From Hormiphora californensis (taxonomy: Eukaryota > Animalia > Ctenophora): a stretch of DNA of 64,000 bases. Positions 5,637 through 59,158 of the stretch are shown here, piece after piece. Made by a program: the position numbers and the translations under genes. The stretch covers positions 9,610,001 to 9,674,000 of the forward strand of contig CM035351.1 of NCBI GenBank assembly GCA_020137815.1, written 5' to 3'. Position 1 is the stretch's first letter; the number at the start of each line of letters is the position of its first letter. The notes beneath the pieces are model-generated. The model ran no database searches. It saw only the letters and a program-made list of their open reading frames with translations, and was not told the DNA's origin.

Positions 5637-8600
5637 TATGCCCAAGCATTGCCGAACGAGCAGTCCACCCTGAGATTTGTGAGTCTGGCGGAGTGCATGT
5701 TAGAGCAGACCCTGACATCACGGGAGAATGGACGATACAGCTACGATTCTCTTCACCTCGCTAAAGACTACCTAAACAAGGTACTAGTGGAGAGAGATAG
5801 ATAGAGAGATAGAGAGAGGGGATAGTGTTGCCTAGTAGTTAGTACCAAACAAGGCAACAATAGTAAAGAGATGTGTTCAACTTACATCTCTTTGATTCAT
5901 CTCCCGTTTAGATTTCTCCTGCGTCTTCTATCTTTCTAGTGTTTGTCACTCTACATGTCTAATATCAATTAGTTAACCTGCAGTGTGTATCAGCTCTTTC
6001 TATAGCTTGTCATCTGCATGGAGGCGTGTGAGGTACATCTCATTATATTGACAGTTTTAGTAGCTGTCGCCCACATACTCTTTCCCTTCATTTCTCTCTT
6101 TTCTCGCTCTCTTACTCTCTTTTCCCTCTCATTCCTTCTCTCTTTCTCTCTCTCTCTCTTCTCTCTCTCTCTCTCTCTCTCTCTCTCTCTCTCTCTCTCT
6201 CTCTCTCTCTCTCTCTCTCTCTCTCTCTCTCTCACACTCTCTCTCTCCCTTTCTAGCTTTTCTCCATCTCTCTCGCTCTCTCCCACTCTCTCACACATAC
6301 TACCCTCGCCACTGAAACTACATAACGGTCTATACTCTACATTTCTTGCATTTCCTGTGGATCATATTAGAATGTGCCAGTTTTGTGGTTTGATTGGTTG
6401 TTGTGCTCCCACCCTGCCTCACTCCCATTCTGTAGAGGTAACCATGGCGGTAACCCCATTAATTCTTGCATGTAACCATGGTTACCGTACTAAACCTACT
6501 GATGATCTGTCTGTAACCATGGTAACCCCACTAATTACATGTAACCACAGGCACTGGCCCACCAAGACAAGACGAACCAGAGTTACAAAGAAGCTATACT
6601 TCTCCAAGCTAAGATGTTCTATGTTCAGGGAAAGTTCCAAGAGTGCCTTGATACCCTCTCTCAGGTTTGTAACACTTGATTGTTCTCTCTCTCTATATCT
6701 CTCTCTCTCTCTCTCTCTCTCTCTCTCTATCTCTCTCTCTCTCTCTCTCTCTCTCTCTCTCCCCACCACAACTCCATCCCCATTTAGGTAGACCTCGATT
6801 TGATGAAGAAAGAGTGTCTGAGTTTCAATGTGAGTCGGGCCCTCGCTGATGCCTATGTGTATAAGGGCATGTCTATGGAACAACTCCGTGAACTACTCTC
6901 CGCTTCTATAGAGGTATGTAATGCAGCCTCATTATATGCCTAGAGGTATGCAGCTAGTGCAGCATCATTAGTTTTGTAGATTGGTATAACAGTGCCGCTA
7001 TATCCTAGTGGACTGCTTCATGTAGTCCCCTCCCCCCACAGATTGAGGGTATAATTGAGTGTTACGAGAGTGCTGCAGATCTAGGGTTGGCCCTAATGGG
7101 CAGTACTACTAGAAGTAGTTTCAATCTAACCCTTAGTGGAGTACTAGAGATGGCTCTACTGAGATCCATCCTTCTCCAGATGAAACACGGACAGGTAATA
7201 ACACCAGCACGCTGGTTCTACACTGTTGATCATGTCTAATCGTGATGTTACTAACCTCCTTGTTACCCCCTTCCTAACACCCCCCCCCCCTGGCAGGTTG
7301 ACAAGGGTCTAGCTAGACTAAGGAGGGTCCTACAACTAGCTGATGTACAGGGTCTGGATGGACTCCGTGTGAAACTGTGTATAACACTTGGTCAGGTACT
7401 GATACAGGGTGTCCCAGATACAGCATGGCCCCCAATTGTATCTAGAGACTCACCTACAGTGGATGGTATGCCAAAGATAGGACCCAGTAAGGGTCGTGCC
7501 ACCCCTATCCAGAAGAAGTACGAGAGTATGTTCTGTCCCTGCAACAAGGCAGAGGAGGCTCTACTTATCTTACTGATAGGACAGGTAATGATGATCCCTC
7601 TTTTACTGTCACATCCAGTCCAATGGTAACCATAGTGATACCCCCTCCCACAGGCACTGTTGGTCATAACACACCCTCCCACAGGCACTATTGCTCATAA
7701 CACACCCTCCCACAGGCACTGTTGTATAAGGAGGGTTGTGTAAGTCTACACGAGGAGGACGCTGTGATGTGTGCCCAAACTAACAGACAGACCCACTCCC
7801 TACTAAACATGATGGTGTTGCTAATGGGACGGTTTGGACAGTACAGGGCCCTAGCTGACACTCTGGAGAAGTTCCTAAAGTTTAGCTATGAGGTAGGTAA
7901 TACAGGGTCCCCCTGATGGATCCTAGTAGTTCTGTATAATAGAAGAATAGGTAGAAGGAGCATTAGTGATTAGCTTCGATAGTTCCTTTATATTAACAAA
8001 TGGGCACTCGGCTAAAGCAACCCAAATCACCCTGAAATGGCGGGAAGCCAGTTACTAGATGACAAGTCTTTATATCTTCCAGGATCTCCACATTTGTAAG
8101 CAGTTTGGTTTGGCATTACTCTCCTCGGGGCAATACTCTAGAGGTGCAGCTGTGTTGGAGAAGTGTCACGAGGCTAAAGCAGACATTCCTATCGCCCTGA
8201 CTATTGCTAAGGTATAACAGCGCCCCCAGACATATAATACCACACTGATTCTTTCCCACTAACCAATTTCTCCCCCGCAGACCTACATCAACCATCTACA
8301 AAGGTATGAGAAGGCTATATCCATCTGTACCGCATGTTTGGATATGGATTCCAAGCATCTCCGGAGCAGGCTATACCTATATAAGGGGATAGCAGAGGCT
8401 GCTCTAACCCGATCTACCGGCCAGCGTACCACAGTGAACAGTTACAGCAAAGCAGCAGTTGAATCACTGTACAAGGCCTACTCTCTAGACCCTAACTGCC
8501 CCCACATTCTCTATCACCTGGCACTAAGACTTGCTACCGTAGGAGAGATTAGAAAGAGTGTCCGGTAAGTTTTCATTATAATATAACAAGTCCCAGCTTT

Positions 8601-56473: not shown

Positions 56474-59158
56474 ATGTTACAACTCCGTACCCCAGGAGGC
56501 TGCCCCCATCTCTCATTCCGATGCCTCTCATCTCTCATTCACCTGGTATGTGTATTTATTTGTAGATTTACCAACAATAGTTGTTAGTGTCGGCTCTTAT
56601 TAGAACATTGTCATATCTCCCTTTTTAACTCCACTCTATCTCAGTATCGGGCTGATGTAAGAAAGGGAGTATTGGTCGAGGATGCCAGACAAATCCACCT
56701 GTTAGAACGACTAGAGGATGTTAATAGTAGACTAGATGCTCAACCACCACCTCCATCATTCTTATCCCGTATCTTCTCCACACCCAGTAAGTTGATAGGC
56801 TCCCATTCCATTCCTCGACCCTCTCTCACCACACCCCGGTAAAGGAAAGTGAAGGGTCTGCAGTAGCTGTGATACTAGTTAACCCCTCAGGTGCCCCCAA
56901 AGTGAAGGGTCTGCAGTAGCTGTGATACTAGTTAACCCCTCAGGTGCCCCCAAAGTGAAGGGTCTGCAGTAGCTGTGATACTAGTTAACCCCTCAGGTGC
57001 CCCCAAAGTGAAGGGCCTGCAGTAGCTGTGATACTAGTTAACCCCTCAGGTGCCCCCAAAGTGAAGGGTCTGCAGTAGCTGTGATACTAGTTAACCCCTC
57101 AGGTGCCCCCAAAGTGAAGGGTCTGTAGCTGTTATACTACTATAAAACCCCTCAGGTGCCCCCAAAGTGAAGGGTCTGCAGTAGCTGTGATACTAGTTAA
57201 CCCCTCAGGTGCCCCCAAAGTGAAGGGTCTGCAGTAGCTGTGATACTAGTTAACCCCTCAGGTGCCCCCAAAGTGAAGGGTCTGCAGTAGCTGTGATACT
57301 AGTTAACCCCTCAGGTGCCCCCAAAGTGAAGGGCCTGCAGTAGCTGTGATACTAGTTAACCCCTCAGGTGCCCCCAAAGTGAAGGGTCTGCAGTAGCTGT
57401 TATACTACTATAAAACCCCTCAGGTGCCCCCAAAGTGAAGGGTATGTAGCTGTGATACTAGTTAACCCCTCAGGTGCCCCCAAAGTGAAGGGTCTGTAGC
57501 TGTTATACTACTAGTTAACCCCTCAGGTGCCCCCAAAGTGAAGGGTCTGTAGCTGTTATACTACTATAAAACCCCTCAGGTGCCCCCAAAGTGAAGGGTC
57601 TGCAGTAGCTGTGATACTAGTTAACCCCTCAGGTGCCCCCAAAGTGAAGGGTCTGTAGCTGTGATACTAGTTAACCCCTCAGGTGCCCCCAAAGTGAAGG
57701 GTCTGTAGCTGTGATACTAGTTAACCCCTCAGGTGCCCCCAAAGTGAAGGGTCTGTAGCTGTGATACTAGTTAACCCCTCAGGTGCCCCCAAAGTGAAGG
57801 GTCTGTAGCTGTGATACTAGTTAACCCCTCAGGTGCCCCCAAAGTGAAGGGTCTGTAGCTGTGATACTAGTTAACCCCTCAGGTGCCCCCAAAGTGAAGG
57901 GTCTGCAGCTGTGATACTACTATAAAACCCTCAGGTGCCCCCAAAGTGAAGGGTCTGTAGCTGTGATACTAGTTAACCCCTCAGGTGCCCCCAAAGTGAA
58001 GGGTCTGTACGTGTTTGGTGGTGTGGGCTGTGGTAAAACGATGATGATGGACTTGTTTTATCAGGAACTATCTGCTACCTCTAAACTACGAACACACTTC
58101 CACGACTTCATGCTGGATGTTCATGAGAGGATACACGCCTTTAAAACTTCCCTTCCACCTTCACATGTCAATGATGTAAGTAACACACCAACCAATATAC
58201 TAGCTCACTATTCACTAACACTACCTCACACACTAACCAATCACCTAGCTCACTATTCACCAACACTACCTTACACAGCGGAAGAGTTACGACCCAATAC
58301 CGGTAGTGGCGCGAGAGATAGCCAGGGAGTCCCGGGTTCTCTGCTTTGATGAGTTCCAAGTGACTGATGTTGCTGATGCGATGATTCTAAAGCGGCTATT
58401 TCACACACTATTTGAAGAGGGTGTTACTATGATAGCTACCGGTAACCGCCCACCAGAAGATCCTCTATAAGAATGGTCTGCAGCGATCCAACTTCCTACC
58501 CTTTATACCCATGCTAAAGTCGCACTGTGAGGTGCTTGATATGGAATCCATTGTGGACTACAGGATCTCTGAGCCTAAACCCCTGGATATACCTGGGGGA
58601 CGTGCTAACTACATCAGGGACCCCCACCAGCTAGACAAGATATTCCATTATCTAACAGGGGGCGCTAAGGGGGCACAATGTCATCCAGTATCAGTACTGG
58701 GGAGAGAGATCAGAGTGGGTGTATCTATAGGTCCCATCCTATCTACGACATACAGAGAACTGATTGAGCAGTCCCACGGGAGCAGTGATTTTAGAGCTCT
58801 TGCCAGGACATTCTCCCATGTTCTAATAAAAGATTTCCCCCAACTGAGTATCAAGAAGAAGACCCAGCTACGAAGATTTATCGTTATGATGGATATATTC
58901 TATGATCGAAATGTGAAACTGATCATATCCAGTGAGGTGCCACTACAGGATATTATCTGTTTACAGGATGCTGATCAGAAGGCTAAGGATGAACTTCGTA
59001 TGTTGATGGACGACCTCAAGTTGACAATGGAAGAGGCCAAGTCAATGTCTCTCTTTACGGGGGAGGATGAGGTGTTTAGTCAGAAGAGAGCTCTTAGTAG
59101 ACTGAGTGAGATGCAGTGTGCTGATTATTGGGAATTACCACACAACAAATATGAATAG
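56474..59158 (+). CDS. AFG1L: AFG1-like mitochondrial ATPase (LACE1/ZapE family); apparent 1-nt frameshift near 58462
   Basis: [81 protein letters not shown]. Confidence 0.95.
56848..58007 (+). repeat. ~22 x 50-53-bp tandem copies of 3' splice site + 23 nt exon start (AFG1L)
   Basis: Unit tagctgtgatactagttaacccctcag|GTGCCCCCAAAGTGAAGGGTCTG. The last copy continues into [11 protein letters not shown]. Confidence 0.95.

What the first reader, a model, noticed from the sequence alone, without database searches (positions are those of the whole stretch)
7641..58007. Recurrent tandem amplification of 3' splice sites: [branch point - pyrimidine tract - AG | exon start]n in many unrelated introns
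Seen: ten arrays in five genes, on both strands, with unrelated unit sequences but the same architecture. They are TTC7 7641-7722 (x3) and 9115-9760 (x~7-8); IARS1 11788-12772 (x~21); TRP 20575-20725 (x4), 21253-21750 (x7), 21982-22500 (x9) and 23161-24771 (x~40); GPCR 42663-42718 (x2); VWA8 48614-48912 (x7); AFG1L 56848-58007 (x~22). Each unit runs from the intron 3' end (usually including a YTAAC/CTGAC-like branch motif) across the AG and copies about 7-57 nt of the next exon. Only the last copy continues into unique protein sequence. Established: spliceosomes usually take the first AG after a branch point, so near-identical upstream acceptors should be used. Inference: either this organism can select the last of many identical acceptors (strict exon definition, recursive or sequential splicing, or heavy NMD), or a splicing-linked mutational process expands DNA at 3' splice sites. 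I know of no description of this as a genome-wide system.
Basis: partly seen in the sequence, partly recalled or inferred. Interest (0 to 1): 0.92.

Follow-up and report, generated by a model that had tools for sequence, protein, structure and literature searches.

The report
Acceptor-only "mirage" minisatellites in a ctenophore
In a comb-jelly genome window, about one intron end in eight has been copied head-to-tail 2 to 39 times together with the start of the next exon, while no intron start has been copied with its exon; such repeats are known from lancelets as likely harmless "mirages", but this one-sided excess suggests that intron ends are a hot zone for DNA duplication.

Summary
In my annotation of 13 genes and 80 introns of this ctenophore window, 10 of 80 acceptors and 0 of 80 donors have a tandem copy straddling the splice site. 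Units are 31-78 nt. They give 110 AG-intact decoys that score like the real site; 107 lead to early stops. Only the last copy continues into the protein. Two arrays tested show strongly raised word depth in two DNA samples, so they are unlikely to be assembly inventions. The repeat type is already named: amphioxus "mirage" minisatellites (PMC3087553, PMC3902484); the human F7 VNTR is the donor-side mirror (PMC1557585). This scan noted acceptor mirages before in annelids, urchins, molluscs and a skate, once with an acceptor bias (unchecked notes). What differs here is the density, the 10:0 asymmetry, and upstream breakpoints near the branch point (25±6 nt from the AG). Microhomology supply and G-quadruplex potential do not explain the bias, and recursive splicing is not supported. 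No RNA crossed an array, so use of the last copy is inferred. New variant of a known kind.

The parts
7643..7724 (+). TTC7 intron 5 acceptor array, 31-nt unit, 3 acceptors; real exon starts 7716
   Evidence: TTC7_N Pfam hit on the upstream exon
9114..9762 (+). TTC7 intron 10 acceptor array, 78-nt unit, 7 acceptors, with 23-nt sub-duplications of the branch region; real exon starts 9717; the three decoys nearest the exon are in frame and stop-free
   Evidence: raised word depth in DNA runs X1 and X5
11789..12772 (+). IARS1 intron 3 acceptor array, about 46-nt unit, 20 acceptors plus one unit without AG; real exon starts 12747
   Evidence: tRNA-synt_1 hits on both flanking exons; raised depth in X1 and X5, back-joints in X5
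20576..20724 (-). Ankyrin-TRP-like channel intron 9 acceptor array, 37-nt unit, 4 acceptors; real exon starts 20584
   Evidence: junction aligns without gap to P0001 and P0002
21252..21750 (-). TRP-like intron 6 acceptor array, 72-nt unit (57 nt exon), 7 acceptors; real exon starts 21308; the exon part supplies a CTGAC motif 17 nt before the next AG
21982..22500 (-). TRP-like intron 5 acceptor array, 58-nt unit, 9 acceptors; real exon starts 22017
23161..24770 (-). TRP-like intron 2 acceptor array, 41-42-nt unit, 39 acceptors; real exon starts 23174
42657..42716 (+). Acceptor duplication (34-nt spacing, 2 acceptors) in intron 1 of a multi-pass membrane protein gene nested in a VWA8 intron; real exon starts 42709
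   Evidence: no Pfam family for its large exon
48609..48912 (-). VWA8 intron 10 acceptor array, about 42-nt unit, 7 acceptors; real exon starts 48619
   Evidence: junction aligns without gap to Mnemiopsis P0004, P0005 and penguin P0121
56846..58007 (+). AFG1L intron 2 acceptor array, 50-53-nt unit, 22 acceptors; real exon starts 57985 and holds the Walker A motif
   Evidence: AFG1_ATPase hit
44269..44770 (-). VWA8 intron 19: the one donor-side array; 39-40-nt unit that begins at the GT, copies only 2 exon letters and fills the intron; 11 decoy donors
17790..18112 (+). Intron-only 32-nt array repeating a branch-like motif, ends 39 nt before the AG (RRM-like gene, label from the translation only)
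19297..19417 (-). Intron-only degenerate 62-nt duplication ending 1 nt before the AG (TRP-like intron 14)
25095..25135 (-). Intron-only 19-nt duplication ending 3 nt before the AG (TRP-like intron 1)
58183..58277 (+). Intron-only 45-nt duplication filling AFG1L intron 3, ending 1 nt before the AG

Best explanation
These are real minisatellites of the 'mirage' type: a 31-78-nt piece from near the branch point across the AG into the exon lies in 2 to 39 tandem copies, likely born by local duplication in a hot zone at intron 3' ends and likely spliced out because the copy next to the full exon is used. Shown: the architecture, the 10:0 excess of acceptors over donors, intact decoys, and an open conserved reading frame through the last copy. 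Inferred steps: (1) a small tandem duplication arises near the intron 3' end, more often than near the 5' end; (2) it survives when the exon-adjacent copy keeps, or gains at the new joint, a branch point; (3) slippage or unequal exchange expands and homogenises the array; (4) the spliceosome takes the acceptor anchored to the whole exon, and nonsense-mediated decay removes most leaks. The arrays are likely near-neutral passengers that lengthen ordinary short introns.
For: 10 of 80 acceptors against 0 of 80 donors. Tandemly repeated 14-mers occur in 10-16 of 80 introns from -60 to 0 at acceptors and in 0 of 77-80 from -60 to 0 at donors, 2 of 80 at +10 and +20. Collapsed introns are 56-174 nt against a median of 122. 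The intron part of the unit is 25±6 nt whatever the unit length (hand-set boundaries, p=0.007 against a uniform split), close to the median branch-motif distance of 19. TRP i6 lacks the old branch motif in its unit but has an exon-derived CTGAC at -17. Last-copy junctions align without gaps to homologues for VWA8 i10 and TRP i9. 107 of 110 decoys give early stops. Variant units come in runs, as in the second half of the AFG1L array. Word depth over the TTC7 i10 and IARS1 arrays is 100-236 and 130-199 against 16-54 in unique bins of X1 (one transposon-like bin apart), and 2,900-19,100 against 0-1,600 in X5, another sample and study. Same kind described in amphioxus with normal mRNA. Eleven decoy donors survive in VWA8 i19, so donor copies are not always purged, which favours a bias in birth over a pure filter.
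Against: No RNA read or contig crossed any array acceptor, so decoy use is unmeasured. One window, chosen for the feature; gene-level p is 0.03-0.06. I found no sequence cause for the hot zone: microhomology supply is no higher at acceptors than at donors, array acceptors are not richer in G4 signal than other acceptors (p=0.30), and copy number does not follow G4 score (p=0.27). Intron-only arrays lie nearer the AG in only 8 of 12 cases, after dropping 12 rows in three long introns with transposon-like inserts. 'At least 9 of 10 units hold 19 or more intron letters' is not significant (p=0.07). Published experiments with duplicated acceptors disagree on which copy is used (PMC1557585 discussion). 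The assembly has errors elsewhere, and 8 of 10 arrays were not checked in reads.
Confidence: 0.68

Rival explanations
1. Pure survivorship: duplications arise evenly, but those crossing a donor are purged because a downstream donor copy gets used, while those crossing an acceptor survive when they include the branch point.
For: No array with period 19 or more lies wholly in the 19.9 kb of modelled exon, so selection is strong. Units mostly include a branch motif. That the intron-proximal donor often wins among duplicated 5' splice sites is recalled, not from a call.
Against: Eleven near-identical decoy donors persist in VWA8 i19 (score 6.6 against 8.3 for the real one, median real donor 7.7). 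Donor-side cases exist in amphioxus and human F7. Repeats are also rare in the first 20 intron bases (2 of 80), and three intron-only duplications end 1-3 nt before the AG.
Confidence: 0.27
2. A splicing-coupled mutational process makes the first duplication: a lesion, polymerase pause or RNA-templated repair event anchored at the branch point sets the upstream breakpoint.
For: Upstream breakpoints cluster at 25±6 nt from the AG while downstream ones spread over about 8-57 nt. Microhomology and G4 do not explain the bias. A LINE-like element in window 1-5500 would supply reverse transcriptase (label from my reading of the ORFs). Unchecked scan notes report acceptor arrays in several phyla.
Against: A reverse transcriptase stop at the lariat branch predicts breakpoints just downstream of the branch A; most units start a few to about 20 nt upstream of my assigned motif. 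Ten hand-set boundaries. Selection for a branch point gives the same lower bound.
Confidence: 0.2
3. The decoys are functional: regulated unproductive splicing to NMD, or variable in-frame inserts (TTC7 i10, 26 residues per unit).
For: Decoys keep the AG and score like the real acceptor; three TTC7 decoys are in frame and stop-free.
Confidence: 0.07
4. Recursive (ratchet) splicing steps through the ladder.
For: Three of ten decoy types begin AG|GT.
Against: Same rate as other exons (23 of 70); regenerated donors score 4.2, 2.8 and -2.9 against a 10th percentile of 5.2 for real donors; seven arrays have no GT there; internal GTs are weak and 15-46 nt from the next AG, under the shortest intron seen (51 nt).
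Confidence: 0.03
5. Assembly or long-read artefact.
For: The window has frame breaks in IARS1 and AFG1L and a 28-mer array whose middle 980 nt have every A replaced by C.
Against: Raised depth in two DNA samples of two studies and back-joints in X5 for the arrays tested; units carry shared variants in runs; no known artefact prefers acceptors in genomic DNA (own knowledge).
Confidence: 0.04

Closest known systems
'Mirage' minisatellites of amphioxus: Adh3 (Canestro et al. 2002, not held; known through citing papers), globins BflGb6 and BflGb9 (PMC3087553, passages and section 16 read), troponin C and PGBD5 (PMC3902484, passages read)
   Same: Tandem units spanning an exon-intron boundary and repeating splice signals; BflGb6 is acceptor-type (intron 3' end plus exon start); unit sizes overlap (Adh3 10-72 bp); normal mRNA reported; origin called unclear.
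   Different: Here a ctenophore; 10 of 80 acceptors in one window; up to 39 copies against 2-7 in the globin and PGBD5 cases; acceptors only (10:0), whereas amphioxus has both boundaries; upstream breakpoints near the branch point. Polymorphism and splicing outcome were measured in amphioxus, not here.
Human F7 intron 7 37-bp VNTR (PMC1557585, abstract, discussion and passages read)
   Same: Several identical, potentially functional splice sites in a minisatellite; only the exon-adjacent one is used.
   Different: Donor side, single locus; explained there by 5'-to-3' scanning, which cannot explain choice of the last acceptor.
Intron gain by tandem duplication of an AG/GT-containing segment (Rogers model; PMC3265369, search listing and start of abstract only; model described in PMC3087553 section 16)
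   Same: Small intragenic duplication that repeats splice signals.
   Different: Here each intron has its own donor 56-174 nt upstream of the array; the duplication lengthens an intron and creates none.
Recursive splicing at AG|GT ratchet points (recalled)
   Same: Several acceptors within one intron.
   Different: No usable regenerated donors; short introns.

Membership tests
Mirage minisatellite | Head-to-tail repeat whose unit spans an exon-intron boundary | tested here: met
   10 arrays straddle modelled acceptors
Mirage minisatellite | Copies duplicate splice signals | tested here: met
   110 decoy AGs with acceptor scores like the real sites
Mirage minisatellite | Minisatellite-size unit (10-160 bp in amphioxus, PMC3087553) | tested here: met
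   31-78 nt
Mirage minisatellite | mRNA is spliced at the authentic site, without aberrant forms | tested here: inconclusive
   Last copy gives an open frame in all ten and gap-free alignment in the two junctions shown; no RNA crossed an array acceptor
Mirage minisatellite | Length instability between alleles or within the soma | tested here: inconclusive
   Arrays present in two samples, with unit variants and small indels in X5; no raised depth in organism B; contigs give no copy number
Mirage minisatellite | Concerted turnover within the array | tested here: inconclusive
   Runs of identical variants in AFG1L, TRP i2 and i5; no tree or formal test made
Recursive splicing ladder | Each intermediate AG is followed by a usable GT donor | tested here: not met
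   3 of 10 have GT, all below the 10th percentile of real donors
Intron gain by tandem duplication | Both splice sites of the intron come from the duplicated segment | tested here: not met
   Unique donors lie 56-174 nt upstream of the first decoy AG; intron positions in outgroups not tested

The most novel reading that the evidence does not exclude
A splicing-coupled mutational process, anchored at the branch point, duplicates DNA at 3' splice sites genome-wide in this ctenophore (and, if the scan's unchecked notes hold, across marine invertebrates), making about one acceptor in eight a minisatellite seed and a major source of intron growth, while acceptor choice is tied so strictly to the downstream exon that up to 38 identical decoys are passed over in an animal with 100-nt introns.
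Probability: 0.2. Interest if true: 0.85.

Novelty: new variant of a known kind. Interest (0 to 1): 0.47.

Why it matters
If the 10:0 bias holds genome-wide, it points to an unexplained link between 3' splice sites and DNA duplication, and gives the origin of mirages, called unclear in PMC3087553, a countable handle. It also offers many natural experiments on an old dispute, which of several identical acceptors is used (conflicting duplication experiments are summarised in PMC1557585), in an early-branching animal whose short introns would be expected to favour the first acceptor. Practically, such arrays can mislead gene prediction and read mapping in ctenophore genomes.

Tried and rejected
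No whole genome is held, so no genome-wide count. Reads: one stretch laid; the RNA-like run X7 gave 4 records, one 151-nt contig (depth 2, 20 letters on the short side) joining across TTC7 intron 11, none across an array acceptor. The four TRP arrays, VWA8, AFG1L, TTC7 i5 and the membrane-protein gene remain unchecked in reads. An exact IARS1 junction motif found 0 metagenome contigs; a CDC123 exon found only 3 distant loci at 35-36% identity, not used. Microhomology supply: words of 3-6 nt across the site are no more frequent at 69 array-free acceptors than at their donors. G-quadruplex idea: acceptors are slightly more C-skewed than donors (p=0.036), but array acceptors do not differ from other acceptors and copy number does not track G4 score. 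Recursive splicing, intron gain and a strict lariat-stop cDNA model rejected or weakened as above. Automated breakpoint calling failed on indel-rich units, so boundaries were set by hand. Papers not held: Canestro 2002, Kuhne 1983, Turri 1995. The ctenophore genome paper PMC8527503 (passages) reports 13% tandem repeats; the 12 of 14 passages shown say nothing on repeats at splice sites; its supplements were not opened and might. Scan notes: none for this genome, none for a bias query. No structure or complex prediction was relevant.
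Full report
Setting. The window is animal DNA with short spliceosomal introns. The best named relative of a VWA8 exon is Mnemiopsis leidyi at 74% identity, with other named animals at 56-62%, so it is a ctenophore other than Mnemiopsis; I do not name the species. No whole genome is held. I built models for 13 genes by coordinates, requiring GT-AG ends and an open frame, guided by tblastn of homologues for VWA8 and part of the TRP-like gene and by Pfam on single exons. This gave 80 introns, median 122 nt. Models outside VWA8 and the covered part of TRP rest on open frames and domain hits, not on RNA.

Observation. All ten arrays exist and cross an acceptor. Counting copies within 2 mismatches of the 12 letters around the real junction gives 120 acceptors: 10 real and 110 decoys, all with AG; this rule leaves out at least two units that lost the AG by deletion. 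Splicing to a decoy gives an early stop in 107 of 110 cases; the three TTC7 intron 10 decoys nearest the exon would add 26, 52 or 78 residues in frame. Decoys score like the real acceptor on a matrix trained on the other 70 introns. With the array collapsed, the introns are ordinary, 56-174 nt. Only the last copy runs on into the protein; for VWA8 i10 and TRP i9 the junction aligns without gaps to homologues, and for IARS1 and AFG1L the exon after the array carries the expected Pfam region.

More than chance? A symmetric test asked whether a word straddling the site recurs in the flanking intron or exons: 9-10 of 80 acceptors, 0 of 80 donors, under six settings; p=0.002 for 10:0, 0.03 by gene. 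One intron (VWA8 i19) repeats its own GT start with 2 exon letters; counted as donor-side it gives 10:1, p=0.012. A sliding profile shows tandem copies in 10-16 of 80 introns from 60 nt before the AG up to it, fading into the exon, and none in the 60 nt before donors. The window was selected for the feature, so these are upper bounds on significance.

Real DNA? One stretch with the edges of two arrays was laid on public contigs. In X1 the array bins have word depth 100-236 and 130-199 against 16-54 in unique bins; in X5, another sample and study, 2,900-19,100 against 0-1,600, with joints that go back from 11892 to 11796 and 11754. Both runs cover introns, so they are genomic. One bin with a dispersed repeat (9908-9984) is high in all DNA runs and is set aside. 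X1 may be the window's own source, and the tool warns that summed depth is no copy number. Organism B (X8) shows 22-80 over the arrays, much like its other bins, a weak hint of few copies there. The RNA-like run did not cross an array. Eight arrays are unchecked, and the assembly has faults elsewhere, so exact copy numbers are provisional.

What it is. The literature has a name. PMC3087553 (section 16) describes minisatellite-like duplications of the 3' end of an intron plus the start of exon 2 in amphioxus globin BflGb6, cites the Adh3 'mirages', reports normal splicing and haplotype length differences, notes that both boundaries are affected, and calls the origin unclear. PMC3902484 adds troponin C and PGBD5. 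The human F7 VNTR repeats a donor five to nine times and only the exon-adjacent copy is used (PMC1557585). I reached this before opening the scan's notes, which list acceptor mirages in annelids, sea urchins, a clam, an octopod and a skate, several said to use only the last copy in RNA, and one with a two- to three-fold acceptor excess (unchecked, not evidence). Nine searches found no paper on mirages in ctenophores or on a genome-wide acceptor bias; most subscription papers are not in the library.

How it likely works. Birth: a 31-78-nt tandem duplication near the intron 3' end (inferred). The intron part of the unit is 13-33 nt, 25±6, whatever the unit length, while the exon part runs from about 8 to 57 nt (p=0.007 against a uniform split; ten hand-set boundaries); the median distance of a branch-like motif in 33 of 70 other introns is 19. 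Survival: the exon-adjacent copy needs its own branch point; 8 of 10 have a strict motif, and TRP i6, whose unit lacks the old one, gets CTGAC at -17 from its exon part. Growth: slippage or unequal exchange, as for any minisatellite (established knowledge; variant runs). Splicing: the first-AG rule applies after branch choice, so the contest is between whole modules, and the one joined to the full exon likely wins; leaks would mostly be NMD substrates (inferred). Recursive splicing lacks regenerated donors.

Why only acceptors? This is open. Supply of microhomology is no greater at acceptors, and G-quadruplex potential separates neither array from array-free acceptors nor long from short arrays. 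Pure selection against donor copies is weakened by 11 strong decoy donors in VWA8 i19 and by donor mirages in other animals. Three intron-only duplications end 1-3 nt before the AG, but overall only 8 of 12 intron-only arrays are nearer the AG than the GT, after dropping 12 rows in three long introns with transposon-like inserts. I favour a duplication hot zone at intron 3' ends plus a branch-point filter; a process truly coupled to splicing is not excluded (about 0.2), though a simple lariat-stop cDNA model fits the breakpoints poorly.

Verdict. Observation confirmed; interpretation partly supported. It works like, and on the tested defining features is, a mirage minisatellite; splicing outcome and polymorphism are inconclusive here. 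New variant of a known kind: high density, acceptor-only, branch-point-proximal breakpoints, in a ctenophore. Interest 0.47; 0.85 if a genome-wide, splicing-coupled origin is shown.

Noticed in passing
window 25364-26906: One 28-nt array upstream of the TRP-like start in two forms: the middle (25900-26880) has no A on the + strand, and its unit differs from the flanking unit at 8 places, all A to C; the transition zone is full of indels. Likely a long-read base-calling or polishing artefact, not two satellites.
   Followed up: partly
window about 13960, 58460 and 55930: Frame breaks inside long exons of IARS1, AFG1L and probably the unnamed gene at 55105-56306; likely assembly indels.
   Followed up: partly
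window 29297-31332 and 32960-35021 (+): Two arylsulfatase-like genes (label from the translation) 97-99% identical including introns: recent tandem duplication or an uncollapsed haplotype. Their 6 introns are counted among the 80.
   Followed up: partly
window 42517-43627 (+) and about 40900-41560 (-): A multi-pass membrane protein gene, and perhaps a second ORF, nested in the 3-kb intron 21 of VWA8; nested genes are common in a ctenophore genome (PMC8527503).
   Followed up: partly
window 61948-62027 (+): A 20-nt unit with a branch-like motif repeated 3.3 times just before the AG in front of a ribosomal protein L27-like start codon, followed about 100 nt after its stop by an S21-like gene with its own AG (names recalled from the translations); looks like trans-splice acceptors in a gene cluster.
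   Followed up: no
window 1-5521 (-): LINE-like retrotransposon with a 585-residue and an 1143-residue open frame; family not tested.
   Followed up: no
window 9950-9985, 18330-18350, 31794-31833, 33407-33446, 36997-37036, 39250-39270: Short dispersed repeats; the one at 9950-9985 draws many unrelated contigs in all three DNA runs, and a 40-nt family has three copies. Likely small transposon relics.
   Followed up: no
window 23161-24770 and 21982-22500 (-): At the unit joint the majority variants carry a better branch motif (CTGAC, CTAAC) than the unique flank they came from; may be selection or chance.
   Followed up: partly
window 60570-60657 (+): A possible old, diverged acceptor duplicate 66 nt upstream of the UBXN6-like exon 3 acceptor, seen by eye; not counted.
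   Followed up: no
window 37521-38532 and 45427-46533 (-): Kilobase C-rich arrays filling VWA8 introns 24 and 16 and ending close to, but not across, the acceptor.
   Followed up: partly
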